A DNA stretch of 64,000 bases from an uncultured Gemmatimonadaceae bacterium (GTDB taxonomy: Bacteria; Gemmatimonadota; Gemmatimonadetes; Gemmatimonadales; Gemmatimonadaceae): NCBI GenBank assembly GCA_963761305.1, contig CAVXGK010000002.1, positions 32,001 to 96,000 on the forward strand, written 5' to 3'. The notes beneath the pieces were generated by a model. That model saw only the letters and a list, made by a program, of their open reading frames with translations. It ran no database searches and was not told the origin of the DNA. Positions 1,410 to 53,819 of this stretch are shown here, piece by piece; positions within the stretch are counted from its first letter, which is position 1, and each line of letters opens with the position of its first letter. Both the position numbers and the translations under genes were made by a program.

Positions 1410-2926
1410 TGCGCACCCGAGCGCCGCTTCTCGCGGCTCTCGCCATCGCGGCGGGCCTTCCGTTCGCCGCAGTGGCCCAGCGGATCTCTCCGCTGCCCAA
1501 GCCCTGCCGTGTGCCGGGCGCCGAGGCCGCGAACGTCCTTCCGCAGCGGATCCGCTCATCGCTGGCCGTGTCGGTTTTCTCATCTGACTCCACCGACCCG
1601 GCGGGGGAGCTGGCGGGCGGAATCGCCGACGCCATCGCCAATCGGCTCGGCACGTCGGTCCCCCGAATCCTCGTGATAGGTCGCCGCGCCCAGCACCGGC
1701 TCGTCGTTACCGACTCGATTTCCGCGCGCGCGATGGCCGAAAGCCTCGGCACGACGTACGTGCTCGCGGGCCGCGTGACCGAGGGACTTCGCGGGCGCAC
1801 CGTGGCGTTCACCTTGTACAACGGCGCGACGGGGCGCGCGCTGATGTATCGCACGCTGCCGCACGATTCCGCCCACGTGATGCTCGTGGAGCAGAACGTC
1901 TCGCGGCAGGTGGCGACGCAGATTCTGGGGAAACTCAACCCGGGCGAACAACGAGCCCTCGACCGGGTGCCACGGGTCAACGGGAACGCTTACGACGCGT
2001 ACGTGCGTGGACAGGGCGCGCGCGACGTGTGGGCGTTTGGCCGGGCGGCTGGATACTTCCGCGACGCGGCGCGGCTCGACAGGTCATTCAGCGCCGCCTT
2101 CGCCGATCTGGCGCTCGCCGACGTCGAGATACTGCTGCGCGGACTCAGCTCGACCGCGGCGACGGACGTCGCTCTCGAGGCGCGCAACGCGGCGAGCCAC
2201 GCCGTCGCGCTCGACTCGATGTCGAGCCTGTCGTGGCGCGCCGAAGGGGCGGCGCGCCTGGTCGACGGGAAATCCAGCGCGCTGTGGCGGCGGGCCTACG
2301 AGCGCGCGATCGTGCTCGACCCTCGCGACCCGGCGGTACTCGAGGAGTACGGACTCGCCCTCGTCCGCACGGGTGATCGCGAAGCCGGCCGCCCGCTGCT
2401 GGAGCGCGCGCTCGTTTACGAACCGGGGCGAGCGCAGCCGATGGCGGCGCTTGCCAGCCTCGCGATCTCCGATCACCGTGATGGCAGCGCGTGCACCCTG
2501 CTCAACCAGGCAATCGTGGGCGACGTGCTCTTCGCGCCCGCGTGGGCGCAACGGGCGGTGGTTCGCGCGCAGCATGGGGATCTGCGCTTCGCGTGGGCCG
2601 ACGCCGAGACCGCGACGCAGCTCGGAGAAAGCCACCTCGGCGAGAGCGCTGGCGCGATGGTCGATTTACTGGCGCGCGATACGTCGCGTGCTCGCGACCG
2701 ACTTTATATCGAGTGGAGCCAGGTGAAGGCCGCCGGCGCGGTGGGAGTGACCGATGGCACGGCAATCGCGCGTGCGATGATCGCCGCGGGGCAATCTACC
2801 CGCGCGCTTGACGTTCTCGAGCTGGCGAGGCCGCGGGGACTGTGGTTCGTTACCGCGTTGCGCGATCCAGCCTTCGACACCCTTCGCGGCGATAAGCGTT
2901 TTCTCGCTCTGACGACGAAGCAATGA
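1406..2926 (+). CDS. Secreted TPR-repeat protein with TolB-N-like domain
   Basis: Signal peptide, LAGGIADAIANRL segment and helical TPR-like repeats (AYDAYVRG, AIVLDP, ALVYEP). Overlaps the upstream stop. Confidence 0.7.
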   Translation: MMRTRAPLLAALAIAAGLPFAAVAQRISPLPKPCRVPGAEAANVLPQRIRSSLAVSVFSSDSTDPAGELAGGIADAIANRLGTSVPRILVIGRRAQHRLVVTDSISARAMAESLGTTYVLAGRVTEGLRGRTVAFTLYNGATGRALMYRTLPHDSAHVMLVEQNVSRQVATQILGKLNPGEQRALDRVPRVNGNAYDAYVRGQGARDVWAFGRAAGYFRDAARLDRSFSAAFADLALADVEILLRGLSSTAATDVALEARNAASHAVALDSMSSLSWRAEGAARLVDGKSSALWRRAYERAIVLDPRDPAVLEEYGLALVRTGDREAGRPLLERALVYEPGRAQPMAALASLAISDHRDGSACTLLNQAIVGDVLFAPAWAQRAVVRAQHGDLRFAWADAETATQLGESHLGESAGAMVDLLARDTSRARDRLYIEWSQVKAAGAVGVTDGTAIARAMIAAGQSTRALDVLELARPRGLWFVTALRDPAFDTLRGDKRFLALTTKQ

Positions 2927-4056
2927 CCGGTCTGCGGATCGATCGGGAGAGGGTTCGGCTCTACGGAATCGGACTCGCCCTGATCGGTCTCACGCAGATG
3001 CGGTTCGTGGCGAGCGTCGGGCACTACTGGGATTGGGTCGACTTCTACATCGCCGGCGCGATGGCCGGGACGCGCGCGCTGCTCGACCCCGCGGCTCATG
3101 CCGCCTGGGGAGCGGCCCATGGCCTCCCCGTGACATCGTTCGCGTACATGCCGGGCTTTGCCTGGCTCCTCGTGCCGACGTCTCACCTGACGATCGCGTT
3201 GGGTTTTGCGGTCAATGCCGTACTGATGTCGCTCTGCGCGCTTGTCGCGTCGAGGCTTGCGTCGCGCGTCTACGGTCTCGACGCCGGAGACGCGCTCTAC
3301 ATGACCATCGGTTGGGCCCCGGTGACGGCAGCAATCGTGACCGGACAAAACAGCCCTCTTGGTCTACTCCTTTCGCTCGTGGCGATCGACGGCCTGCAGC
3401 GGGGCAGCGCTCTCCGAACGGGCCTGGGTGTTGGGGCGCTGTGCTACAAACCAACATACGCGCTGCCGTTCGCCATTCTGCTTCTCATATATCGAAAGTG
3501 GAAGGCGATCGGGGTCGTGGCGGCGTGCGGCGTGGTATGGTACGTACTCAGCGCGAGCGCGGCAGGCGGGGACTGGCTGTGGCCAAGGCCGTATCTCCAG
3601 TCGCTGGCCGGCTACGTCGGGCCGGATTTCGCCTACAACCGCTTCAAGTCGGTGAGCGTTCCGGGGCTGCTGATGCTGGCCGGCGTCTCAGCCAGCGTGG
3701 CCTTTGGGATCGGGATGGTTGGTCTCGTCTCGGCGCTGGGGTGGCTCAGGGCGCGGAAGGTCGAGCTGCTTTCGGCCGCAAGTCTTGCGGGAGTCATTGG
3801 CGTGGCGACGAGCGGGCACGCGTGGCCGTACGATGCGGCGCTCGCGTTGCCGGCGCTGTGGTGGGTCGCGGCGAAGGTCGACGAGCCGGCGAGGACTCGG
3901 GCGATCGTGGTTGCGTACGTGGTTGCGCCGTTGTGGATGGCGGCGCATACACTCCGATTCGACCCGCTGGCGATTGTCGTTGTTGGAGGGGCGGGGGCGC
4001 TTGTGGTGCGAACGGCGAAACTAACAAAGAGCGAAACAAACAAAGGGCGAAGCTAA
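2923..4056 (+). CDS. Glycosyltransferase family 87 (GT-C) membrane protein
   Basis: Multi-TM protein with DWVDFY, FAYMP, GQNS and KP motifs. ATGA overlap with upstream gene. Stop codon lies inside the 16-mer array. Confidence 0.75.
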   Translation: MTGLRIDRERVRLYGIGLALIGLTQMRFVASVGHYWDWVDFYIAGAMAGTRALLDPAAHAAWGAAHGLPVTSFAYMPGFAWLLVPTSHLTIALGFAVNAVLMSLCALVASRLASRVYGLDAGDALYMTIGWAPVTAAIVTGQNSPLGLLLSLVAIDGLQRGSALRTGLGVGALCYKPTYALPFAILLLIYRKWKAIGVVAACGVVWYVLSASAAGGDWLWPRPYLQSLAGYVGPDFAYNRFKSVSVPGLLMLAGVSASVAFGIGMVGLVSALGWLRARKVELLSAASLAGVIGVATSGHAWPYDAALALPALWWVAAKVDEPARTRAIVVAYVVAPLWMAAHTLRFDPLAIVVVGGAGALVVRTAKLTKSETNKGRS

Positions 4057-4164
4057 CAAAGAGCGAAGCTAACAAAGGGCGAAGCTAACAAAGGGCGAAG
4101 CTAACAAAGGGCGAAGCTAACAAAGGGCGAAGGTGACGAACGGCGAAGGTGACGAACGGCGAAA
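4021..4164 (+). repeat. 16-bp tandem array (CTAACAAAGGGCGAAG)x7 + (GTGACGAACGGCGAAR)x2; solo end
   Basis: Units read directly at 16-nt period with no spacers. Same unit order as 4925-5052. Confidence 0.95.
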
Positions 4165-4297
4165 AAGGCGAGATGACGTGGCCCCCAAGACTGGCCCGGA
4201 AATGATGTCAGTCCAGTGATTGACGCTCGCGCGTTGGCGCAGCGGAAGCTGTCCGATCTCGAGGGGCAGCGGGAGGTGGTGCGACACATCTGTGTCC

Positions 4298-4720
4298 CTA
4301 GGCTGGCACCGGAGTGCCCTTGGCCCACGCCCACGCGGCTATGCGCCAACTGTCTTCATGCTTCCGAAGTGCAAGCGTAAAGGTCGCGTCCGACTGAGTA
4401 ATCTGCTTGCCCAATAGCTTGAACGTCATGCTCGCGGGAACCACCACATACGCACTGTCGCCGGTAACGTTGGCATGCAACGGGGTGCCGATCGTGACCA
4501 AGTAGTCGGTCGCGCCTTCGTGTTCGGCTGCCGCCAATACGTCCCTGTACCAATCCTCACACGCCGTGGGACCGTGCCACACATGTGGCGCCAGACCATC
4601 GAGGATAGATGCGGGAACAGCGAAACACGCCGCCATTGCCCGAGCGTCACCTTTGTTGAACGCGTCGATGTACTGGCGCACTACAGTTACGGGATCGCTT
4701 GTTGGTGCAGCCCGTGCCAT
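4298..4720 (-). CDS. SnoaL/NTF2-like protein
   Basis: VVRQYIDAFNKGDARAMAACF...WRIAAWAW. GGGAGA SD upstream of ATG at 4720. Visibly less GC-rich than its neighbours. Confidence 0.85.
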   Translation of the reverse strand: MARAAPTSDPVTVVRQYIDAFNKGDARAMAACFAVPASILDGLAPHVWHGPTACEDWYRDVLAAAEHEGATDYLVTIGTPLHANVTGDSAYVVVPASMTFKLLGKQITQSDATFTLALRKHEDSWRIAAWAWAKGTPVPA

Positions 4721-4924
4721 GTGAGTTTCTCCCAAGGCTTCGCCAAAGCTCGGTCCATCTCAGGACGCGCATTCAAGTTGTGCGCGTCGCGCGCGCAGAC
4801 ACCGAGACACGGTACGAAGACGACAGTCAGTCGGTGATTAGCGTCGTGAAGGTGCAACGTTGAGGAGTTCTTTGACAAACTCGTCCGGGGTCCGATCGCC
4901 GAGGCCGCTGTTAGCGCGCGACGA

Positions 4925-5052
4925 CTAACAAAGGGCGAAACTAACAAAGGGCGAAACTAACAAAGGGCGAAGCTAACAAAGGGCGAAGCTAACAAAGGGC
5001 GAAGCTAACAAAGGGCGAAGGTGACGAACGGCGAAACGGCGAAAACGGCGAG
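4925..5052 (+). repeat. 16-bp tandem array x6 plus degenerate terminal units; downstream arm of four-helix-bundle element A
   Basis: CTAACAAAGGGCGAAR x6, then GTGACGAACGGCGAAA. Ends 8 nt from the stop of the four-helix-bundle gene. Confidence 0.95.
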
Positions 5053-5060
5053 GGGTTCGA

Positions 5061-5396
5061 CTAGTACTTCAAGCCGTTGATCATCCGAACGATCGTGATG
5101 CCGCGGTTTGAGAGGCGGTGGTAGTCGGCACGGGTAAGTTCGCCCAGACGATACGACTTCCGAATCCATCCGATTGTCTCCTCGCACTCACAGCGGGCGA
5201 TTCGGTAGACGCGCATCCGATCGGCGCCCGGGCCACGGCCGTAGCCCTCGATCAGGTTTGAACTGATCGATCCGGCGGAGCGAATAACTTGCCCTGAATA
5301 CGTCTTTCGGCCGGCGCGCCGACCGAAGCGGCGATTTACGTCCACGGCGTAATCCTCGGCTGCATCGATCACGCGCAGCGTCCGTTTCGGTGGCAT
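5061..5396 (-). CDS. Four helix bundle protein (23S rRNA IVP / Avd-like family)
   Basis: QVIRSAGSISSNLIEGYGR...YRIAR.ECEET..W...LG.L...DY..L matches the family pattern Q.RRAA.SI.SNIAEG.GR. Start placed at MPPKR (111 aa); the ORF is open to 5495. Confidence 0.85.
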   Translation of the reverse strand: MPPKRTLRVIDAAEDYAVDVNRRFGRRAGRKTYSGQVIRSAGSISSNLIEGYGRGPGADRMRVYRIARCECEETIGWIRKSYRLGELTRADYHRLSNRGITIVRMINGLKY

Positions 5397-5543
5397 GGGC
5401 GACACCGTAACGCCGCTCTCGGGGCCAACCACCATCCCGCCGTTGCCGCCGGAACCAATCCGTTGCCGAATTCCTTCTGCCGAAGGAGAGGTCACGGCCG
5501 GGCTGAGAAAGGTCTGAATCGCCCCTCTGGCCGTTCTCGCCCC

Positions 5544-5687
5544 TCTCGAAGTTCGTTACCTTCGCTCTTCGTTAGCCTCGCCGTTTGGCGTCTTCGCCGT
5601 TCGTTCGTTTCGCTCTTCGTTAGCTTCGCCGTTTGGCATCCTCGCCGTTTGGCATCTTCGCCCTTCGTTCCCTTCGCCGTTCGCCTA
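5544..5687 (-). repeat. Inverted, more degenerate 16-bp array (about 9 units, e.g. CTTCGCTCTTCGTTAG); upstream arm of element A
   Basis: Reverse complement of the 16-mer at 16-nt period. Ends 1 nt before the ATG at 5689. Confidence 0.9.
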
Positions 5688-5688
5688 C

Positions 5689-7344
5689 ATGGTCAAGCCG
5701 ATCATTCTCGCCGTCGACGATGATCCCGAAGTGCTGAACGCGGTCGATCGCGATCTTCGCGCGCACTTTCGCGCGGACTATCGGGTCATCAAGGTCGCGT
5801 CCGGCCGCCTGGCGATGGAGACGACGACGCAGCTCAAGCAGCGGGGGTCGCCGATCGCGCTCTTTCTCGTCGACGAGCGCATGCCCGAGATGAGCGGGAC
5901 GCAGTTTCTGGCCGAGGCGATCAAGCTGTATCCGGACGCGCGCAAGGTGTTGCTGACGGCGTACGCCGATACCGAGACGGCGATCCTCGCAATTAATAAG
6001 ATTGGGCTTGATCATTATTTACTGAAACCGTGGGAACCGCCGGCCGAGCGGTTGTATCCGATCCTCGACGACTTGTTGACGGACTGGAAGGCGAGGACGC
6101 GGCCGCTGTTCGACGGGTTGCGCGTCGCCGGCACGGGGCTCTCGCCGTCGAGCTATGCACTCAAGGATTTTCTCGCCGGCAACCAGGTGCCGTACCAGTG
6201 GGTCGACCTCGATGCGGATCCCGCGGCGCGCGCGCTGGTCGAGGCGATGCCGGGCGGATTGAAGCGGCTTCCGGTCGTCTTCTTTCCCGACGGAGCGTCG
6301 ATGGTCCAGCCGACGACGCTCCAGCTGGCCGAGAAGCTCGGCATGCAGACGCACGCGAAGTCGAAGCAGTACGACCTCGTCGTCGTCGGCGGCGGGCCGG
6401 CGGGATTGGCCGCGGCCGTGTACGGCGCGTCGGAGGGGCTGCGCACGATTCTGGTCGAGCGCTATGCGACCGGCGGACAGGCGGGCACCAGCTCGCAGAT
6501 CGAGAACTACCTCGGGTTCCCGAGCGGCGTGAGCGGCGCGGATCTCGCGCGCCGAGCCACGACACAGGCGAAGCGATTCGGGGCCGAGGTGCTCACGGCG
6601 CAGGACGTCGGGTCGATCGAGCGGAACGATCCGTATCGCGTGGTGAAGCTGTCCGACGGTTCTGTGTTGCAGAGCAAGACGGTTGTCATCGCGTCGGGGA
6701 TGGAAGTGCGGCGGCTCGACGTGCCGGGGATCGAGGCGCTCGTCGGCTGCGGCGTTTTCTACGGCGCCGCGCTCACCGAAGCGGCGACGTACCGCGACCG
6801 CGACGTGTTCGTCATCGGCGGCGCGAACTCGGCGGGGCAGGGCGCGATGTTTTTCTCGCGCTACGCGCGGCGCGTGACGATGCTCGTGCGCGGCGAATCG
6901 CTGACCGCCAGCATGTCGCAGTATCTCATCGACCGCATCGCGGACACCAAGAACGTCGAAGTGCTAACGCGAGCAGCGGTGTGCGGGGTGCGGGGAACTG
7001 AGAGGCTCGAGGCGATCACGATCTCCGATCTCAAGACCGGTGCGACGCGCGAGATGCCGGCCGACGCGCTGTTCATCTTCATCGGCACGTCGCCGCGCAC
7101 CGAGGTGGTCGCGGGACTGGTGCAGCGCGACGCGCAGGGATTCATCCTCACGGGACGCGACCTGATGGTCGACGGCCAGCGTCCGCCGGGGTGGACGCGC
7201 GACCCGTATCTCTTCGAGACGAGCGTGCCGGGCATCTTCGCCGCCGGCGACGCGCGGCGCGGCTCGGGAAAACGCGTCGCCGCGGCCGTGGGCGAGGGAT
7301 CGGCGACGGTGAGCATGGTCCACGAATACCTGGAGACTGTGTGA
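5689..7344 (+). CDS. Receiver domain fused to thioredoxin-reductase-like FAD/NAD(P) oxidoreductase
   Basis: N-terminal ILAVDDD...LVDERMP...KPW; GGGPAG, GGANSAG and GIFAAGD motifs. No CxxC (YGAALTEA). Confidence 0.9.
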   Translation: MVKPIILAVDDDPEVLNAVDRDLRAHFRADYRVIKVASGRLAMETTTQLKQRGSPIALFLVDERMPEMSGTQFLAEAIKLYPDARKVLLTAYADTETAILAINKIGLDHYLLKPWEPPAERLYPILDDLLTDWKARTRPLFDGLRVAGTGLSPSSYALKDFLAGNQVPYQWVDLDADPAARALVEAMPGGLKRLPVVFFPDGASMVQPTTLQLAEKLGMQTHAKSKQYDLVVVGGGPAGLAAAVYGASEGLRTILVERYATGGQAGTSSQIENYLGFPSGVSGADLARRATTQAKRFGAEVLTAQDVGSIERNDPYRVVKLSDGSVLQSKTVVIASGMEVRRLDVPGIEALVGCGVFYGAALTEAATYRDRDVFVIGGANSAGQGAMFFSRYARRVTMLVRGESLTASMSQYLIDRIADTKNVEVLTRAAVCGVRGTERLEAITISDLKTGATREMPADALFIFIGTSPRTEVVAGLVQRDAQGFILTGRDLMVDGQRPPGWTRDPYLFETSVPGIFAAGDARRGSGKRVAAAVGEGSATVSMVHEYLETV

Positions 7345-8774
7345 TGGGCGACACGCCTGCGGAAATCGTCGAGCGGCTCGTCGCGCACCGCACACTGGGG
7401 GGCGCGCCGCGCGCGGAGCTCGAGTGGCTGGCCACGCACGGCACCATGCGGCGCTACGGAACGGGGGACATCCTCGTCCCGCCCGGTGCGACGTCCACCG
7501 AGATGGTGATCATCTTCGTGGGCGACGGGTCGATCAGCGTCGAACGAGCGGGGGAAAAAAAGAAGTTCCTCGAGTGGCACGCCGGCGACGTCACCGGCCT
7601 GCTTCCATATTCTCGAATGAAGCGGCCGCCGGGGCTGACGACGACGGAGTCGTCAATCGAGGGGCTCGTCATTCACCGGGATCTGTTCCCCGAGCTGACG
7701 CGCGAATGTCCGTGGGTCACGGAGACGCTCGTGCACATCATGCTCGATCGCGCGCGGCAGTTTTCGGCCAACGACTGGCAGATCGACAAGCTCGCGTCGC
7801 TGGGACGCCTCTCGGCGGGACTGGCGCACGAGCTCAACAACCCGGCGTCGGCGATCGCGCGCAGCGCGCGAACGCTGGTCGAGAACCTGGCGCAGTCGCA
7901 AGCGGCGGCGCGAGAACTGGGGGCGGCCAACCTCCGCGATCGCGACATCGCGCTGATCGACGCCATGCGCGACGGCCAGGCGTTTCCGCGAGCGACCGGC
8001 ATCTTCTCGGCGATCGAGCGCGCCGATCACGAAGAGGAAGTGGTCGAATGGCTCGAAGCCAAGGGCGCCGATCCGGCGACGGCGCAGAGCCTGAGCGAGA
8101 ATGGCGTTCCCGTGGCGGCGCTCGACGATCTGGCGAGCGCGATCCCGGAAGAGTCGCTGGATGCCGCGCTCCGGTCGGTGGCGTCGGGCATCACGACGCG
8201 CTTGCTCGCCGAGGACATCGAGCGCGCCGCGACGCGGATTCACGAGCTGGTCGGCGCGATCAAGCGCTTCACCTACATGGATCGCGCGACGGTGCGAGAA
8301 CCGGCCAACATCGCGCAGGGGATCTCGGACACGATCGCCGTGCTGGCGTCGAAGGCGAAGTCAAAATCGGCCTCGATCAAGCTCGACATCCCCGCCGATC
8401 TGCCGAAGGTCGGCGCGTACGGAGGCGAGTTGAATCAGGTATGGTCGAACCTGATCGAGAACGCGCTCGATGCGCTGGGGCAGGGCGGCGAGGTGTCGGT
8501 CACGGCGCGGGCGGAGGGGGACACGGTCATGGTGCGGATCGTCGACAATGGGTCGGGGATTCCGGCGGATGTCCTGCCTAGCATCTTCGATCCGTTCTTT
8601 ACTACGAAGCCGATGGGGCAGGGGACGGGGCTGGGGCTGGACATCAGTCGGCGGATCGTGTTATCGCATGAAGGGACGATTGAGGTCGAGTCTAAGGCGG
8701 GGAGGACGGAGTTTAGGATTTCATTACCAACGGCGAAGATAACAAAGGGCGAAGATGACAAAGGGCGAGGATAA
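7344..8774 (+). CDS. Sensor histidine kinase with N-terminal cNMP-binding-like domain
   Basis: LAHELNNP H-box, NLIENALDA, DNGSGI, FFTTK, GTGLGL. ATG overlaps the upstream TGA. Stop lies in the repeat array. Confidence 0.9.
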   Translation: MGDTPAEIVERLVAHRTLGGAPRAELEWLATHGTMRRYGTGDILVPPGATSTEMVIIFVGDGSISVERAGEKKKFLEWHAGDVTGLLPYSRMKRPPGLTTTESSIEGLVIHRDLFPELTRECPWVTETLVHIMLDRARQFSANDWQIDKLASLGRLSAGLAHELNNPASAIARSARTLVENLAQSQAAARELGAANLRDRDIALIDAMRDGQAFPRATGIFSAIERADHEEEVVEWLEAKGADPATAQSLSENGVPVAALDDLASAIPEESLDAALRSVASGITTRLLAEDIERAATRIHELVGAIKRFTYMDRATVREPANIAQGISDTIAVLASKAKSKSASIKLDIPADLPKVGAYGGELNQVWSNLIENALDALGQGGEVSVTARAEGDTVMVRIVDNGSGIPADVLPSIFDPFFTTKPMGQGTGLGLDISRRIVLSHEGTIEVESKAGRTEFRISLPTAKITKGEDDKGRG

Positions 8775-9083
8775 CAAAGGGCGAAGATAACAAAGGGCGA
8801 AGATAACAAAGAGCGAGGATAACAAAGGGCGAAGATAACAAAGGGCGAGGATAACAAAGAGCGAGGATAACAGAGGGCGAAACTGCCAAAGGGCGAAGCT
8901 AACAAAGAGCGAAGGTGACGAACGGCGAGAACGGCGTAAGGCGCCCCGTCGCCTCTGGATTCGCAGTCCTCGCAGTCCTCGCAGTCCTCGCAGTCTTGGC
9001 TGTTCTCGGAGTTTGTCACCTTCGCTGTTCGTTAGTTTCGGAGTTTGTCACTTTCGGGGTTTGTTACCTTCGCTTTTAGTCAG
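8739..9083. mobile_element. Gene-less fold-back copy of the 16-mer element: forward array x12, (TCGCAGTCC)x4 core, inverted array x5
   Basis: Forward units 8739-8930, 9-mers 8961-8996, inverted units 9004-9083. Inner junctions resemble those of element A. The repeats are certain; mobility is inferred. Confidence 0.7.
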
Positions 9084-15651: not shown

Positions 15652-15760
15652 CATCCGCGTCATCTGCGTCAATCTGCGTTCATCCGCGTTGAGTAGTTGC
15701 AGTTGGCAGTTGCAGTTGCAATTGGCCGTTGGCAGTTGCAGTTGGCAATTGGAGTTGTAG
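15652..15760 (+). repeat. Composite short tandem repeats: about 4 ATCYGCGT-type 9-10-mers followed by GCAGTT(G) 6/7-mers
   Basis: catccgcgt catctgcgtc aatctgcgtt catccgcgtt, then gttgcagttggcagttgcagttgcaattgg... Confidence 0.8.
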
Positions 15761-15788
15761 TGAATGACTTACCCTATCGAGTAGTTCG

Positions 15789-18913: not shown

Positions 18914-19173
18914 ACGGCGATTGGGTCGCGGCCACTCTGAGGTTTGTCTCGCCGGTTCGACGTCGCGGTGCGCGCTCGACGTCTGACGTCAGATTTCAGA
19001 CGTCAGACGTCAGACCCTGCGGTTGGCCGGTGAGTCTTCGCGTCAGGGCGGAATCGGACCGCGTCGCGCCGGGTCTGACGTCTGATATCAGACCTCTGAC
19101 GTCCGACTTCGAGCCTGCAGCCGTACCATCCACTCCAAGACAGACCTCAGAGTGGCCGCGATCCGACCGTCGT
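18914..19173. mobile_element. Gene-less fold-back copy of the 7-mer element with 36-bp terminal inverted repeats and inner (GTCAGAC)n arrays
   Basis: 18914-18949 is inverted to 19138-19173 (5 mismatches) and 18974-19016 is inverted to 19072-19114. Both arms match the flanks of the 46.5-kb four-helix-bundle gene. Mobility is inferred. Confidence 0.75.
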
Positions 19174-41495: not shown

Positions 41496-42768
41496 GTCGT
41501 TCGTCGCTCGCCGAGCGGTGGTTGAAACGGTCGGATGGCCGGCGCTGGTCGCGCTCCTCTGCGCGGCCGCGTGCAGTGAAACTACGACGTCCATCCGCCG
41601 ATTTCCGGTGCTCGACGACGTCGGCTCGAGCGATTGGGTCACGGTCACCGTCGGCGGCGACCATTCGTGCGGCATCAAGACCGACGGCAGCGCGTACTGC
41701 TGGGGAAGCAACGAATACGGCCAACTCGGCGTCGCGCAGGGCGACACGATCTGCGGATCGCTGAGCAACGCGTATCCGTGTGCGACCACGCCGCAGCTCG
41801 TCCAGGCGGGGCTCCAGTTCGCGTCGATCAGCGCGGGCCAACGCCACACGTGCGCCATCACCCGCTCGAACGAAGCGTATTGTTGGGGATCGAACGACGC
41901 GGGACAGGTGAGTGATTTCGGAGCGGGTGGTCCGACCCTCATGAAAGTCCCCAGCTCGCTCCCGTGGACTCAGATCACCGCAGGGTTCTCGCACACGTGC
42001 GCCGTGCGGTCCGACGGGGTGCTCGTGTGTTGGGGCTCGAACGACCGCGGCGAGTTGGGAAACGGAAATCTCTTTCCCGGAACGACGCGAGCGAGCATCG
42101 CGTCTCCCGTCGCGGCGGCGAGCGCCGGACAATCGCGCACCTGCGCGCGCACGACGACGGGCGTCGTGTACTGCTGGGGCGCGATCTGGACCGAGCGAAG
42201 CGGAGGGCTCGAGCTCTCACGAACGCAATTGACCCCGCAGCTCGTGCCGAGCGCGCCGGCGATGGCGTGGTTGAGCGTCGGTTCGTTCAGCACGTGCGGC
42301 GCCGACATTTCGGGTTTCGCGTATTGCTGGGAGGCGAATCCGCGCGGCGAGATGGGCACCGGGACGCAGAACGGCAGCACGACGCCCGCGCGGGTGGCGA
42401 GCGACCTCGAATTCGTGCAACTGAGCGCCGGCATCGTGCAGACGTGCGGCATCGACATCACCGGGACGGGCTACTGTTGGGGCGACGACAGCTTCGGCCA
42501 GTTGGGGCTCTCGCCGTCGGTGCTCATCGAACGGTGCGGGGGACAGATACTTCCGTGCGCGACGAAGCCGGTCGGCGTGGTGGGGCGGCAGAAGTTCGTG
42601 GAGATCGCCACCGGATTCGGCAGTCATTCGTGCGGCGTGACGAGCCGCGGCAATCTCTATTGCTGGGGACTTGGCCTCTCGGGCCAGCGGGGTGATGGAA
42701 CCGAGGTGGGAGCCGTGGCGACGCCGGCACTTGTGGTCGAGCCCGCTCGTCTGGTGAACTCGAAGTAG
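41494..42768 (+). CDS. RCC1-repeat lipoprotein
   Basis: Repeated H(S/T)C......AYCWGxN..GQLG units and lipobox AAAC. Start uncertain (41494 or 41518). Confidence 0.9.
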   Translation: MSFVARRAVVETVGWPALVALLCAAACSETTTSIRRFPVLDDVGSSDWVTVTVGGDHSCGIKTDGSAYCWGSNEYGQLGVAQGDTICGSLSNAYPCATTPQLVQAGLQFASISAGQRHTCAITRSNEAYCWGSNDAGQVSDFGAGGPTLMKVPSSLPWTQITAGFSHTCAVRSDGVLVCWGSNDRGELGNGNLFPGTTRASIASPVAAASAGQSRTCARTTTGVVYCWGAIWTERSGGLELSRTQLTPQLVPSAPAMAWLSVGSFSTCGADISGFAYCWEANPRGEMGTGTQNGSTTPARVASDLEFVQLSAGIVQTCGIDITGTGYCWGDDSFGQLGLSPSVLIERCGGQILPCATKPVGVVGRQKFVEIATGFGSHSCGVTSRGNLYCWGLGLSGQRGDGTEVGAVATPALVVEPARLVNSK

Positions 42769-42818
42769 ACGGGTGGACGGGTGGATGGTGAAGGGGTGGA
42801 CGGGTGAACGGGTGGATG
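42769..42818 (+). repeat. 8-bp tandem repeat (GGGTGGAC-like) x about 6
   Basis: acgggtggacgggtggatggtgaaggggtggacgggtgaacgggtggatg, starting at the RCC1 stop. Confidence 0.8.
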
Positions 42819-46335: not shown

Positions 46336-46996
46336 GGCGTTGGGTGGCCCGGCCATTCTGGGCACTGGCGCCGGGTTAGGTACGACTTTGGGCTCGAAGT
46401 CGGACGTCAGATGTCGGACGTCAGATGTCAGACAATGCGTACCCCGGAAACAGAATCGTGATGGAGCCCCGCCGCCGATGCATATCGTCGCCCCCTAACC
46501 GGAGGACAGGTGGGGAACTTCAGGCGACTCGTGGCATGCAGAAGGCGAACGCGTATTCGTTGGCAGTCCACGCGGCGTTTCGAACCATGAGGGCACAGGT
46601 CTCGCCGGGGTTCCCCGCCCAAGTCCTTCGTGCAGTCAGCTCCATTCCCGACAACCTTGCCGAAGGCTGCGCCAAGCGCTCTAGGCGCGAACTCGCGCGC
46701 TACGCCGACACGGCCTATTCGTCCTCGAAGGAAGTCGAGAATCAACTCATTCGGGCACGAGCGCTCGGACTGCTGAGTCGCCAGATGTTCGAGGACCTGA
46801 TGCGCCAGGGAGACGAGGTCTCGCGGCTGTGCTACGCCCTCGCGCTCGGCTGACCCGCCTGCGGCGACTCCTGCCGGGGCGAGCAGGAGGTCTGACGTCT
46901 GACATCTGACATCTGACATCTGACGTCAGACGTCGAGCGAACCACGTGGCTCGCCGGCCAATCGAACTCAGAGTGGCCGACCGCCCCTCCAACGCC
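46336..46996 (+). mobile_element. Four-helix-bundle element B: terminal IRs plus inverted 7-mer arrays around the gene
   Basis: (GTCRGAY)x5 at 46399-46433 and (RTCTGAC)x5 at 46890-46924. Outer IR GGCGTTGG..CGGCCATTCTG pairs with CAGAGTGGCCG..CCAACGCC. Mobility is inferred. Confidence 0.7.
46510..46853 (+). pseudogene. Four helix bundle protein (23S rRNA IVP / Avd-like), 1-nt frameshift near 46538
   Basis: GGAGG SD plus GTG gives MGNFRRLVA, then TG CAG AAG GCG (expected W-Q-K-A). The other frame carries QVLRAVSSIPDNLAEGCAKRS...EVENQLIRARALG. Confidence 0.8.
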
Positions 46997-47899: not shown

Positions 47900-48004
47900 G
47901 GGCGACCAGGAGGTCTGACGTCCGATTCTGTCTGACGTCAGCCGTCAGTCGTCGAGCGAACCACGTGGCCAGCCGGCCAATCGGACCTGGAATGGCCGAC
48001 GCCC
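47900..48004 (+). repeat. Solo direct copy of the downstream arm of element B
   Basis: GGGCGA.CAGGAGGTCTGACGTC...GTCGAGCGAACCACGTGGC..GCCGGCCAATCG...TGGCCGAC matches 46877-46986. Confidence 0.9.
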
Positions 48005-52862: not shown

Positions 52863-52937
52863 GGTGACTGTAGCTCAATCGGTTAGAGCACCGGACTGTG
52901 GCTCCGGGGGTTGCGGGTTCAATTCCCGTCAGTCACC
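52863..52937 (+). tRNA. tRNA-His(GTG) with encoded G-1
   Basis: Acceptor GTGACTG/CAGTCAC; anticodon arm CCGGA-CTGTGGC-TCCGG; GGTTCAATTCC. Confidence 0.97.
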
Positions 52938-52979
52938 CTGCGGCGGTCGCCGAGGCGAGGCGGCGCGGGAATTGGAGTT

Positions 52980-53052
52980 AGGTCGGTAGCTCAACTGGTA
53001 GAGCACTGGTCTCCAAAACCAGCGGTTGGGGGTTCAAGTCCCTCCCGGCCTG
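52980..53052 (+). tRNA. tRNA-Trp(CCA)
   Basis: AGGTCGG/CCGGCCT; CTGGT-CTCCAAA-ACCAG. Confidence 0.97.
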
Positions 53053-53169
53053 TGAGAGCAAAAGGGCACGTGGACGAGTTAGGGGAAGTGTGCGGGCGGA
53101 CACTGTAGGCGTCAGCGACGGGCGGCAGCATCAGTGGGAAGGCGGCAACGAGCGAGAAGCAAGTCCTAG

Positions 53170-53242
53170 GGCGGTATCGTCTAGGGGACTAGGACGGGGC
53201 CCTCTCAAGGCCCAAACACGGGTTCGAATCCCGTTACCGCTA
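53170..53242 (+). tRNA. tRNA-Glu(CTC)
   Basis: GGCGGTA/TACCGCT; GGGCC-CTCTCAA-GGCCC. Confidence 0.96.
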
Positions 53243-53291
53243 TTGGAAGTTGTGGTATGAGATGGTTGGAACAGGTGGTTCGCGTCGACCT

Positions 53292-53363
53292 GGCCCGTTC
53301 GTCTATCGGTTAGGACGGCACCCTTTCACGGTGCAGAGAGGGGTTCGATTCCCCTACGGGCTA
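53292..53363 (+). tRNA. tRNA-Glu(TTC)
   Basis: GGCCCGT/ACGGGCT; GCACC-CTTTCAC-GGTGC. Confidence 0.97.
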
Positions 53364-53370
53364 TCGAACG

Positions 53371-53467
53371 CAGGTGGGCAGGCGGACAGCAGGCGATGAA
53401 AGGGATTGGAGAGTTGGCGCGAGGCGCGGGTGTAGGTCCACCCGTCACCCCGTCCACCTGTCCACCC
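53371..53467. repeat. Inverted 8-mer arrays (GGTGGAC / GTCCACC family) between tRNA-Glu and tRNA-Asp
   Basis: caggtgggcaggcggacag ... gtccacccgtcaccccgtccacctgtccaccc. Confidence 0.65.
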
Positions 53468-53475
53468 GAAGTTCA

Positions 53476-53550
53476 GGGGGCGTAGCTCAGTTTGGTTAGA
53501 GCACTCGACTGTCACTCGAGAGGTCGCGGGTTCGAGCCCCGTCGCTCCCG
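53476..53550 (+). tRNA. tRNA-Asp(GTC)
   Basis: GGGGGCG/CGCTCCC; CTCGA-CTGTCAC-TCGAG. Confidence 0.97.
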
Positions 53551-53633
53551 TGTTGGACAGCTAAGGCGAAAGTTGGAATTCGAAATTCCGATTCTCTGAT
53601 AGCTGAAATGTGGTTGATGGTCGCACGTGGAAT

Positions 53634-53715
53634 GCCCTGGTGGTGAAATTGGTAGACACGCCATCTTGAGGGGGTGGTGCCGCAAGGCGTCACGGTTCGA
53701 GTCCGTGCCAGGGCA
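53634..53715 (+). tRNA. tRNA-Leu(GAG)
   Basis: GCCCTGG/CCAGGGC; CCATC-TTGAGGG-GGTGG; long variable arm. Confidence 0.97.
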
Positions 53716-53747
53716 TGCAGCACAGTCGTCCTAGAGTCGAGAACGTC

Positions 53748-53819
53748 GCCAGCGTAGCTCAGTGGTAGAGCACTCGATTCGTAATCGAGCGGTCGTCGGT
53801 TCAATCCCGACCGCTGGCT
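53748..53819 (+). tRNA. tRNA-Thr(CGT)
   Basis: GCCAGCG/CGCTGGC; CTCGA-TTCGTAA-TCGAG. Confidence 0.97.

What the first reader, a model, noticed from the sequence alone, without database searches (positions are those of the whole stretch)
4925..5687. Candidate new element class: four-helix-bundle (Avd-like) gene enclosed by inverted tandem-repeat arrays (element A, 16-mer)
Seen: a 111-aa four-helix-bundle gene is flanked by (CTAACAAAGGGCGAAG)n on one side and its reverse complement on the other, so the unit can fold back with the gene in the loop. The same design recurs at 46.3-47.0 kb with a different repeat and a divergent paralog. Each repeat family also has a gene-less copy and a solo end in this window. 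Known: this family (PF05635/TIGR02436) occurs in excised 23S rRNA intervening sequences and is homologous to Avd, the RNA/RT-binding accessory protein of diversity-generating retroelements. Inference: each protein is paired with its own repeat family in a mobile or RNA-level (excised loop) system that has no transposase of its own.
Basis: partly seen in the sequence, partly recalled or inferred. Interest (0 to 1): 0.88.

Follow-up and report, generated by a model that had tools for sequence, protein, structure and literature searches.

The report
Repeat-armed hairpin cassette with four-helix gene
A small four-helix-bundle gene sits between two mirror-image arrays of a 16-base repeat, and gene-less hairpins built from the same repeat are present or absent at the same gene junction in sister species, so it is likely a small mobile cassette of a widespread, barely described kind whose protein is predicted to act on its own repeats.

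Summary
Window 4924-5687 is a 111-aa PF05635/TIGR02436 gene (minus strand) between inverted arrays of a 16-mer. A second cassette (46344-46984, 7-mer arms) and gene-less and solo copies of both repeat families lie in the window.

In this genome 8 of 9 PF05635 genes have inverted-repeat flanks, against 10 of 1500 random windows. In 74 loci from many phyla 58 do, against 0 of 132 shifted controls. This scan has reported the heptamer-armed form on other DNA (91 notes).

New here:
- A genus-specific protein clade has arms of 16-17/25/13-nt period.
- The cassette stays syntenic in 7 species while the unit changes and the arms stay complementary.
- Each species' unit variant is shared with dispersed arrays in that genome only.
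- One gene junction is empty in 3 species and filled by hairpins of 3 kinds in 4.
- A 96.6% identical 645-bp copy has unrelated flanks.
- Arm mismatches show no RNA wobble bias.
- The 5' arm is purine-rich in 87 of 96 loci.

Best reading: a transposase-less, IVS-like mobile hairpin cassette. Protein binding to the repeats, and the way of moving, are untested. I found no paper linking this protein family to dispersed repeat arrays.

The parts
4924..5051 (+). Arm of element A that lies 3' of the gene (the gene is on the minus strand): 16-mer ACTAACAAAGGGCGAA x7.1 (4924-5037), then AACGGCGA x3 (5027-5051). Purine-rich on the + strand.
5061..5396 (-). PF05635 / TIGR02436 four-helix-bundle gene: 111 aa from ATG 5396, stop 5061-5063. 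The frame stays open up to 5495. It carries the RxxxSxxxNxxE motif.
   Evidence: dN/dS 0.01-0.44 among 7 orthologues
5519..5687 (+). Arm of element A that lies 5' of the gene: 18-mer x2 (5519-5554), then a degenerate 16-mer array (5552-5683), the reverse complement of the other arm. It ends 1-5 nt before the ATG (5689) of the response-regulator/pyridine-nucleotide-disulphide-oxidoreductase gene.
4014..4163 (+). Extra direct copy of the purine-rich 16-mer arm (GGCGAAGCTAACAAAG x9.4), with the same inner end GGTGACGAACGGCGA. It overlaps the last codons of the GT87 gene (2923-4056).
8732..9072 (.). Gene-less hairpin of the same 16-mer family. Arms 8732-8914 and 9006-9072; the loop holds (TCGCAGTCC) x3.9. 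It sits at the histidine-kinase/decarboxylase junction, which is empty in G017, G024 and G022. The kinase frame (7191-8774) ends inside the array.
46344..46984 (+). Element B, extent defined by the 96.6% identical copy at C1:30875-31519. Outer inverted ends CGGCCATTCTGGG (46350-46362) and CTCAGAGTGGCCG (46967-46979). 7-mer arrays at 46399-46433 and 46890-46934.
46536..46853 (+). PF05635 gene of element B. Compared with the C1 copy it lacks 1 base near 46537/46538, which cuts off the canonical N-terminus (MGNFRRLVAW...). The C1 copy has 2 extra bases mid-gene and is frameshifted.
18928..19160 (.). Gene-less member of the 7-mer family, bounded by the same outer inverted ends (GGCCACTCTGAG at 18930, CTCAGAGTGGCC at 19146). 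Arrays at 18978-19015 and 19073-19107.
47901..48002 (+). Solo right end of the 7-mer family, 81% identical to the right end of element B.
42768..42816 (+). Solo array of the 8-mer family (GACGGGTG x6.2). The gene-bearing copy of this family is at C1:1510305-1510991.
53436..53468 (+). Solo array of the 8-mer family (GTCCACCC x4.1), in a spacer of a 7-tRNA cluster.

Best explanation
Element A is a gene-in-a-hairpin cassette that likely belongs to a transposase-less mobile family: a PF05635 four-helix-bundle gene enclosed by two mutually complementary tandem-repeat arms, with gene-less hairpins of the same repeat scattered through the genome.

Shown here:
- The architecture.
- Its strong, cross-phylum association with this protein family.
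- Purifying selection on the protein.
- Arms that stay complementary while their unit sequence is replaced between species.
- Unit variants shared by a cassette and the dispersed arrays of the same genome only.
- Gain or loss of gene-less hairpins at one gene junction.
- One recent 645-bp gene-bearing duplicate.

Inferred:
- The pentameric protein would bind the repeated units of its own arms, one unit or half-unit per subunit, on single-stranded or extruded DNA, and help copies to be made, kept or homogenised.
- Gene-less hairpins would depend on it in trans.
- Strand breakage and joining would be done by host replication or repair enzymes, since the element encodes nothing else.
- When transcribed, the arms would pair into a long stem. 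As in 23S rRNA intervening sequences, that stem could be cut by RNase III, which would make insertion next to or inside operons tolerable.
For: Association.
- PF05635 has 9 loci in this genome. 8 of 9 have inverted flanks scoring 29 or more, against 10 of 1500 random windows at 16 or more.
- 15 of 30 loci from 40 relatives of the same order have matching inverted arrays on both sides.
- In loci from many phyla, 63 of 79 have an inverted score of 16 or more, against 11 of 79 for direct. With stricter flanks 58 of 74 do, against 0 of 132 shifted pseudo-genes in the same loci.

Pairing.
- Six unit families each hold a gene-bearing copy.
- Arrays found outside the cassette: 96 for the 8-mer, 18 for the 7-mer, 11 for 16-mer A, 8 for 16-mer B, 1 for the 32-mer, 0 for the 13-mer.
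- The own 16-mer variant has 24 hits in the own genome and 0 in G017, G005, G022 and G019.
- The G017-type variant has 33, 24 and 21 hits in G017, G005 and G022, at the cassette and at other loci. It has 1 hit in the own genome and 0 in G019.

Concerted arms.
- Cassette A is syntenic upstream of the same gene in 7 species, with units that differ. The arms remain complementary, with inverted scores of 30-122.

Mobility.
- At the kinase/decarboxylase junction, G017, G024 and G022 have the stop codon, 15-16 nt and then ATG.
- The own genome, G015, and G005 with G019 carry hairpins of three different kinds there.
- G017 and G005 differ in this although dS is 0.038 at the cassette gene.
- Element B has a 96.6% identical 645-bp copy with sharp ends. 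It also has 4 gene-less copies with the same outer inverted ends.

Protein kept.
- dN/dS is 0.01-0.44 in 21 pairs.
- The relatives 2GSC and 2RLD were each solved with 5 chains. 2GSC is described as a homopentameric toroid (passage in PMC4990558).

DNA rather than RNA signature.
- G:U mismatches number 298 against 281 A:C on the sense strand.
Against: - No direct evidence that the protein binds the repeats. An earlier claim in this scan that the protein reads its heptamer base by base was later marked as partly fallen.
- The gene-bearing cassettes are vertically inherited: A at one site in 7 species, B at one site in 9 of 12. Only one gene-bearing duplication was seen.
- No target-site duplication is evident at the junctions.
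- No enzyme for cutting and joining is identified.
- A unit shared by a cassette and dispersed arrays is also expected from plain descent of gene-less copies, without any protein recognition.
- The period tracking the protein clade is likewise expected from co-inheritance, and that clade was sampled by similarity to the query.
- The filled state shared by G005 and G019, which are not sisters, may reflect precise losses or recombination rather than repeated insertion.
- One of 9 loci (C2:2381411) has no inverted flanks.
- Both copies of the element B gene look damaged.
Confidence: 0.55

Rival explanations
1. An RNA-level module rather than a mobile element. The arms exist to form a long stem in the transcript, cut by RNase III as in rRNA intervening sequences. 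That stem would insulate, stabilise or regulate the enclosed mRNA and its neighbours. The arrays would arise by slippage, and the protein would be an RNA chaperone or autoregulator.
For: The sense RNA folds arm-to-arm across the gene, z -9.5. In the cross-phylum sample the heptamer arms end about 15-40 nt before the start codon, leaving no room for a promoter inside. The same layout in the Coxiella 23S IVS is cut by RNase III in its 28-bp stem (PMC4990558, passages). The cassettes abut neighbouring start and stop codons.
Against: There is no excess of G:U over A:C mismatches on the sense strand: 298 against 281 in total, 38 against 45 loci, p 0.51. Structured RNAs normally show such an excess. 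An RNA role alone does not explain the sharp-ended 645-bp duplicate. It also does not explain hairpins of three kinds arriving at one junction. No RNA data exist for this organism.
Confidence: 0.2
2. Ordinary miniature inverted-repeat elements moved in trans by an unrelated transposase that recognises the outer inverted ends. The four-helix-bundle gene would be a mere passenger.
For: The 7-mer family has conserved 12-13-nt outer inverted ends. Its gene-less copies are of uniform size, with 205-216 nt between ends in 4 copies. Both gene copies of that family are damaged.
Against: The only component shared across phyla and unit types is PF05635. The 16-mer hairpins inserted at the kinase junction begin and end with the arrays themselves, without separate ends or duplications. 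The protein is under purifying selection. There is no Y1/RAYT transposase in the genome. I did not search other transposase families for matching ends.
Confidence: 0.12
3. There is no functional link. Slippage-prone, structure-forming simple repeats (G-quadruplex or hairpin formers) accumulate in intergenic DNA, and PF05635 genes merely tend to land in or persist within them.
For: Convergent G-rich heptamer arrays without any gene are common in Xanthomonas, at 70-75 pairs (PMC4692102, passages). This genome has 96 arrays of the 8-mer family outside the one cassette.
Against: 58 of 74 PF05635 loci have inverted flanks, against 0 of 132 shifted controls in the same loci. The arms sit at fixed distances from the gene, with a median of 4.4 units each in the heptamer form. 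The unit variant of a cassette matches the dispersed arrays of its own genome.
Confidence: 0.08
4. An Avd-type accessory protein of a diversity-generating retroelement.
For: PF05635 is the family to which Avd is assigned in a review (PMC10053308, search listing only).
Against: The genome has one reverse transcriptase (C1:821086-821748), 24 kb from the nearest PF05635 gene and on the other contig from the window. No template or variable repeat pair lies at the element.
Confidence: 0.02

Closest known systems
ORF-bearing intervening sequences of 23S rRNA (Coxiella burnetii helix 45; Leptospira; Warrier et al. 2016, PMC4990558, passages read; Ralph and McClelland 1993, seen only as a citation)
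   Same: A PF05635 ('S23p') gene lies in the loop of a stem formed by terminal inverted repeats. Tandem heptamers (GACAGAT x2-3, copy number varying between strains) lie just upstream of the ORF. These sequences are long suspected to be remnants of a mobile element whose ORF served mobility.
   Different: Element A is not in an rRNA gene. The single 23S gene of this genome (C2:930793-933753) has no such insert. Both arms are long tandem arrays of 16-nt period. Matched gene-less families are dispersed in the genome. RNase III cutting is not shown here.
Convergent pairs of GGGAATC heptamer arrays in Xanthomonas campestris and X. axonopodis, and GGGGAYT arrays in Nostoc (Rehm et al. 2015, PMC4692102, passages read)
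   Same: These are gene-less intergenic pairs of short G-rich tandem arrays, one on each strand, facing each other. That is the same polarity as here: the purine-rich arm is 5' in 87 of 96 loci, and there are 0 divergent pairs.
   Different: That paper treats them as G-quadruplex-forming simple repeats and names no protein; the terms S23, four helix and intervening sequence do not occur in it. Here each repeat family has a gene-bearing copy, the units are 16, 8, 13 or 32 nt as well as 7, and insertion polymorphism is seen.
REPIN/RAYT systems and IS200/IS605
   Same: Hairpin-forming dispersed repeats sit in inverted pairs around a single small gene. There are many gene-less copies and no target duplication.
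   Different: No Y1/HUH transposase is present in the genome. The gene here is a four-helix bundle with no known catalytic activity. The arms are tandem arrays whose sequence turns over.
Miniature inverted-repeat transposable elements
   Same: These are short and non-autonomous-looking. The 7-mer family has outer inverted ends and gene-less copies of uniform size.
   Different: No transposase-bearing parent was found, and no target-site duplication was seen. The 16-mer hairpins have no ends other than the arrays.
XCC0516 (PDB 2GSC) and the Bacteroides protein of PDB 2RLD
   Same: They belong to the same protein family: the profile of 34 cassette proteins matches at E 1.3e-35 and 1.3e-15. Each was solved with 5 chains.
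   Different: No function or nucleic-acid partner is reported for them in the passages I read.

Membership tests
PF05635 / TIGR02436 four-helix-bundle protein | HMM score over the curated cut-off | tested here: met
   Element A scores 57 bits (cut-off 33.8) and 60.2 bits (cut-off 24). Element B scores 70.8 bits.
PF05635 / TIGR02436 four-helix-bundle protein | Conserved motif RxxxSxxxNxxE (given as GxxRxxxSxxxNxxE in PMC3936711, passage) | tested here: met
   The motif reads RSAGSISSNLIE in element A and RAVSSIPDNLAE in element B. S38, N42, E45 and G46 are invariant or nearly so in 34 sequences.
PF05635 / TIGR02436 four-helix-bundle protein | Homopentameric ring of four-helix bundles | not tested
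   Inferred only from 2GSC and 2RLD (5 chains each) and a passage in PMC4990558. No model was made here.
23S rRNA intervening sequence (ORF-bearing) | Lies inside a 23S rRNA gene | tested here: not met
   The flanks are protein genes. Rfam finds only tRNAs in the window. The one 23S gene is at C2:930793-933753.
23S rRNA intervening sequence (ORF-bearing) | Terminal inverted repeats form a stem with the ORF in the loop | tested here: met
   (z -9.5).
23S rRNA intervening sequence (ORF-bearing) | Excised from the transcript by RNase III | not testable with these tools
   No RNA run holds this DNA.
Diversity-generating retroelement (Avd) | Adjacent reverse transcriptase and template/variable repeats | tested here: not met
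   The one RVT_1 gene in the genome lies 24 kb from the nearest PF05635 gene.
REPIN/RAYT | A Y1 (HUH) transposase flanked by the repeats | tested here: not met
   PF01797 has 0 matches in the genome, which is 93% complete.
MITE | Terminal inverted repeats and uniform-size non-coding copies | tested here: met
   Met for the 7-mer family only.
MITE | Target-site duplication and a transposase-bearing parent element | tested here: inconclusive
   No duplication is evident at 2 copies of element B or at the kinase junction. Transposase families other than Y1 were not searched.
Convergent short-unit tandem arrays (Xanthomonas type) | Two arrays of one short G-rich unit on opposite strands facing each other in intergenic DNA | tested here: met
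   Of 283 neighbouring array pairs, 39 are inverted and 18 direct. Polarity is shown. The unit length differs, at 16, 8, 13 or 32 nt.

The most novel reading that the evidence does not exclude
PF05635 pentamers are the long-missing partner of bacterial short-period tandem repeats. Each ring reads the repeated units of its own hairpin. With host replication and repair enzymes only, it drives copying, insertion at gene junctions and arm-to-arm rewriting of the repeats. This would be a mobile-element class without a transposase. It would include the 23S rRNA intervening sequences and the dispersed heptamer (here 8- and 16-mer) arrays of many phyla.
Probability: 0.25. Interest if true: 0.9.

Novelty: new variant of a known kind. 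Interest (0 to 1): 0.74.

Why it matters
PF05635/TIGR02436 is a very large family of 'hypothetical' proteins with solved structures and no function. Short-period tandem arrays, mostly heptamers, are an unexplained feature of many bacterial genomes. 23S rRNA intervening sequences have been suspected for thirty years to be relics of a mobile element.

This genus offers a natural experiment that ties the three together:
- Several cassette families with different units sit side by side in one genome.
- Orthologous cassettes have arms that were rewritten between species yet stay complementary.
- One gene junction is caught empty and filled in near-identical species.

That makes two questions directly testable: whether the protein recognises its own repeats, and how a hairpin with no transposase spreads. 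On the practical side, these arrays break assemblies. They also change gene ends: here a histidine kinase's last 14 codons are array sequence.

Tried and rejected
- RNA evidence: no RNA holder is listed for window 4200-7400.
- Laying contigs of four soil DNA runs on 3600-6600 gave only short pieces. The joints had sides under 30 nt inside the repeats, so they cannot be told from other copies of the family. No conclusion was drawn.
- Empty site for the C1 copy of element B: homology to 8 relatives ends at the neighbouring topoisomerase-IB-like gene, so no empty site could be aligned.
- Empty site for cassette A: every relative with the same two neighbours has a cassette. G002 and G023 have other neighbours.
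- Stop codons in all frames as the reason for periods not divisible by 3: the 16-mer A unit carries TAA, but the 8-mer, the 16-mer B and the G017-type units carry no stop. Rejected as a general rule.
- The protein/unit covariation test was not pushed further. Co-inheritance explains the tree pattern, and dS is saturated for most pairs.
- The first alignment (A2) was too diverse for the collection scan. A closer one (A3) was used.
- Literature: six searches found no paper linking PF05635 to dispersed inverted arrays. Subscription journals are not covered, and no supplements were opened.
Full report
WHAT IS THERE.

Window 4924-5687 holds three parts.
- A tandem array ACTAACAAAGGGCGAA x7.1 at 4924-5037, 92% matches.
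- An ORF on the minus strand (5061-5495; 111 aa from the ATG at 5396).
- A second array at 5552-5683 of the reverse-complement unit. This one is degenerate: 69% matches, mixed with CTTCGCCGTTTGGCAT variants.

The ORF matches PF05635 at 57 bits (cut-off 33.8) and TIGR02436 'four helix bundle protein' at 60 bits (cut-off 24). It carries the family's RxxxSxxxNxxE motif.

The arms also pair in their non-tandem inner parts (GGTGACGAACGGCGA... against ...CGCCGTTCTCGCC..TTCGT.ACCTTCGC). Folded as RNA, the sense strand pairs the arms across the whole gene: -380.5 kcal/mol against -305.6 +/- 7.9 in 20 shuffles, z -9.5.

The second design at 46.3-47.0 kb is real, with 7-mer arrays at 46399-46433 and 46890-46934 around a PF05635 ORF. 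So are the gene-less and solo copies of both families in the window: 8732-9072, 4014-4163, 18928-19160 and 47901-48002.

IS IT MORE THAN CHANCE?

The genome (5.21 Mb, 2 contigs, 66% G+C) has 9 PF05635 loci.
- Seven lie between tandem arrays in inverted orientation, each with its own unit: an 8-mer, a 13-mer, a 7-mer (two loci), two different 16-mers and a 32-mer.
- By a flank-to-flank alignment, 8 of 9 score 29 or more. Of 1500 random 310-nt windows, 10 reach 16 and 1 reaches 25.
- Genome-wide, of 283 neighbouring array pairs, 39 are inverted and 18 direct. The inverted pairs fall into a class with a 450-520-nt gap that holds the gene and a class with a 20-165-nt gap and no gene.

HOW GENERAL IS IT?

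- In 40 relatives of the same order, 39 of 41 genomes (own included) have the family. Of the 30 loci fetched, 15 have matching inverted arrays on both sides, mostly 7-mers x4-6 with a different unit at each locus.
- In 80 named loci from many phyla (Acidobacteriota, Bacteroidota, Pseudomonadota, Chloroflexota, Planctomycetota, Cyanobacteria, Bacillota and others), 79 could be scored. 63 have an inverted score of 16 or more and 11 a direct score of 16 or more.
- With both flanks at least 300 nt, 58 of 74 pass, against 0 of 132 pseudo-genes shifted by 1150 nt in the same loci.
- The usual form is a heptamer with a median of 4.4 copies per arm: IQR 4.0-5.0 upstream (n 65) and 4.25-4.7 downstream (n 68).

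This scan has reported that heptamer-armed form many times on other DNA: 91 notes in at least 90 genomes. The general pattern is therefore not new to the scan. I re-derived it independently before looking.

WHAT THIS WINDOW ADDS.

(1) A variant with long periods.
- The proteins of element A and of the other 16-mer cassette (C2:1513599, 40% identical) form one clade with 25 further proteins, all from this genus. Their arms have periods of 16-17, 25, 13, 14 or 18 nt. Inverted scores reach 195.
- All other sampled proteins go with period 7, and now and then 8. 68 of 78 cross-phylum loci have period 7.
- The period class changes 10 times on the protein tree, against 31-37 in the ten shuffles printed. 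This is what co-inheritance predicts, and the clade was sampled by similarity to the query. It describes the pattern and proves nothing about recognition.
- The 16-mers look like two 8-nt half-units (GGCGAAAC + TGGCGAAC in G017).

(2) Arms rewritten in concert.
- Cassette A sits between the GT87 membrane-protein gene and the response-regulator/oxidoreductase gene in the own genome and in G019, G005, G015, G017, G024 and G022. The neighbour protein is 80-87% identical.
- The unit differs between species: GGCGAAGCTAACAAAG here, GGCGAAACTGGCGAAC in G017, GGCGAAACSGGCGAAC in G005, and CCGAAACGGCC.. or CCGAGACTGCCGAAC in G019, G024 and G015. In each species both arms carry the same variant.
- The protein is kept: dN/dS is 0.01-0.44 in 21 pairs.
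- G001 has a PF05635 gene of another type, in the other orientation, at this site.

(3) The unit variant is genome-wide.
- The own variant occurs 24 times in the own genome, at the cassette and at 6 other places, and 0 times in G017, G005, G022 and G019.
- The G017-type variant occurs 33, 24 and 21 times in G017, G005 and G022, at the cassette and elsewhere. It occurs once here and not in G019.
- Arrays found outside the cassettes in the own genome: 96 (8-mer), 18 (7-mer), 11 (16-mer A), 8 (16-mer B), 1 (32-mer) and 0 (13-mer). No pair stands in the divergent orientation.

(4) Presence and absence at one junction.
- The gene-less hairpin at 8732-9072 lies between a histidine-kinase gene and a PLP-decarboxylase gene.
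- In G017, G024 and G022 these genes are separated by the stop codon plus 15-16 nt.
- G015 has a hairpin of its own A-type unit there. G005 and G019 share a hairpin of the 16-mer-B type with a homologous loop. The own genome has its own A-type hairpin, which replaces the last codons of the kinase: its frame 7191-8774 ends in the array.
- G017 (empty) and G005 (filled) differ although dS at the cassette gene is 0.038.
- The inserted DNA begins 1-12 nt after the stop codon and consists of the arms and loop only. I see no target duplication.

(5) A recent copy.
- Element B (46344-46984) has a 96.6% identical 645-bp copy at C1:30875-31519, with unrelated flanks and sharp ends.
- The ends are inverted 12-13-mers (CGGCCAYTCTGRG). 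The same ends bound four gene-less copies with 205-216 nt between ends, which are about 60-70% alike by eye in the alignment.
- The window copy is the ancestral one. A PF05635 gene lies at this site in 9 of 12 species.
- Both copies of the gene look damaged: 1 base is missing at the N-terminus here, and 2 extra bases lie mid-gene in the C1 copy.

(6) DNA or RNA?
- In 112 of 145 loci with alignable arms, mismatches that would be G:U in the sense RNA number 298. Those that would be A:C number 281. By locus the split is 38 against 45, with 29 ties, p 0.51.
- Stems kept by selection on RNA usually tolerate G:U and not A:C. Complementarity here therefore behaves like that of DNA inverted repeats, or is kept by a copying process rather than by selection on each pair.

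(7) Polarity.
- The arm 5' of the gene, and by symmetry the 5' arm on either strand, is purine-rich in 87 of 96 loci. It has G>C in 80 of 93.
- The opposite layout is nearly absent. No explanation I tried accounts for this.

WHAT IT IS NOT.
- It is not in an rRNA gene. There is one 23S gene, at C2:930793-933753, of normal length, and Rfam finds only tRNAs in the window.
- It is not a diversity-generating-retroelement Avd. The single reverse transcriptase lies 24 kb from the nearest family member.
- It is not a REPIN/RAYT system. There is no Y1 transposase.

MECHANISM.

I commit, at about 0.55, to a transposase-less mobile hairpin cassette. The protein's relatives XCC0516/2GSC and 2RLD were solved with 5 chains, and 2GSC is called a homopentameric toroid in a passage of PMC4990558.

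Inferred steps:
- The pentameric protein binds the repeated units of its own arms.
- It supports copying, maintenance or arm-to-arm homogenisation, with host enzymes doing the chemistry.
- Gene-less hairpins ride in trans.
- Transcribed copies are made harmless by stem formation and probably RNase III.

What is shown is the anatomy, the association, the selection on the protein, the concerted change of arms, the genome-specific unit variants, and the gain, loss and duplication events.

Rivals:
- A purely RNA-level module (0.2).
- Ordinary MITEs with the gene as passenger (0.12).
- No functional link (0.08).
- Avd of a retroelement (0.02).

LITERATURE.
- Warrier et al. 2016 (PMC4990558, abstract and passages). 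The Coxiella 23S IVS has the S23p ORF in the loop of a 28-bp stem cut by RNase III. It has 2-3 GACAGAT heptamers before the ORF. The paper recalls older proposals that IVSs are relics of mobile elements.
- Rehm et al. 2015 (PMC4692102, passages). 70-75 convergent GGGAATC array pairs in Xanthomonas are treated as G-quadruplex repeats. The protein is not mentioned.
- MacGregor 2015 (PMC4679880, passages). TAACTGA heptamers in Beggiatoaceae, cyanobacteria and Bacteroidetes. The protein is not mentioned.
- Zhang et al. 2013 (PMC3936711, passages). 18 family members in cas loci, and the motif.
- Six searches found no paper that links PF05635 to dispersed inverted arrays outside rRNA. Subscription journals and supplements were not seen.

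VERDICT.

It is a new variant (long-period arms, matched families, insertion polymorphism) of a kind known in part from rRNA intervening sequences and heptamer arrays, and already met repeatedly by this scan.

Noticed in passing
window 4014-5037: A SnoaL-like gene (4298-4735, minus strand) lies between two direct copies of the purine-rich 16-mer arm (4014-4163 and 4924-5037). In G019, G005, G015, G017 and G024 the GT87 gene abuts the cassette directly and this gene is not there. The arrays therefore seem to have mediated a gene insertion or rearrangement.
   Followed up: partly
window 7191-8774: The histidine-kinase reading frame runs into the 16-mer array and stops there. Its last 14 codons are repeat sequence, unlike the C-terminus in species with an empty junction.
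   Followed up: partly
window 52864-53819: A cluster of seven tRNA genes. An array of the 8-mer family (GTCCACCC x4.1, 53436-53468) sits in one spacer.
   Followed up: no
window 8961-8995: A perfect (TCGCAGTCC) x3.9 array lies inside the loop of the gene-less hairpin. Several 8-mer hairpins elsewhere carry 7-mer-family arrays in their loops (for example C1:63991-64138), so elements are nested.
   Followed up: no
window 15695-15761: A tandem array of AGTTGC / AGTTGCAGTTGGC units, about 10 copies, with no inverted partner found.
   Followed up: no
L154 (G001:C142), upstream of the response-regulator/oxidoreductase gene: A PF05635 gene of a different type occupies the site that holds cassette A in seven other species. 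It resembles the own 13-mer cassette protein and has the opposite orientation. No arrays were detected.
   Followed up: partly
table, many relatives: Many PF05635 hits lie within 60-600 nt of a contig end in fragmented assemblies (for example G001:C11:62-376 and G021:C199:225-539). This is as expected if the flanking arrays break assemblies.
   Followed up: no
G000:C1:1486756-1487176, C2:195890-196455, C2:2345719-2346316: Inverted 8-mer arrays enclose other small ORFs: one 104-aa frame, and two hydrophobic frames of about 113-149 aa that look like small membrane proteins. None was run against a family library. The arms are therefore not exclusive to PF05635 cargo.
   Followed up: no
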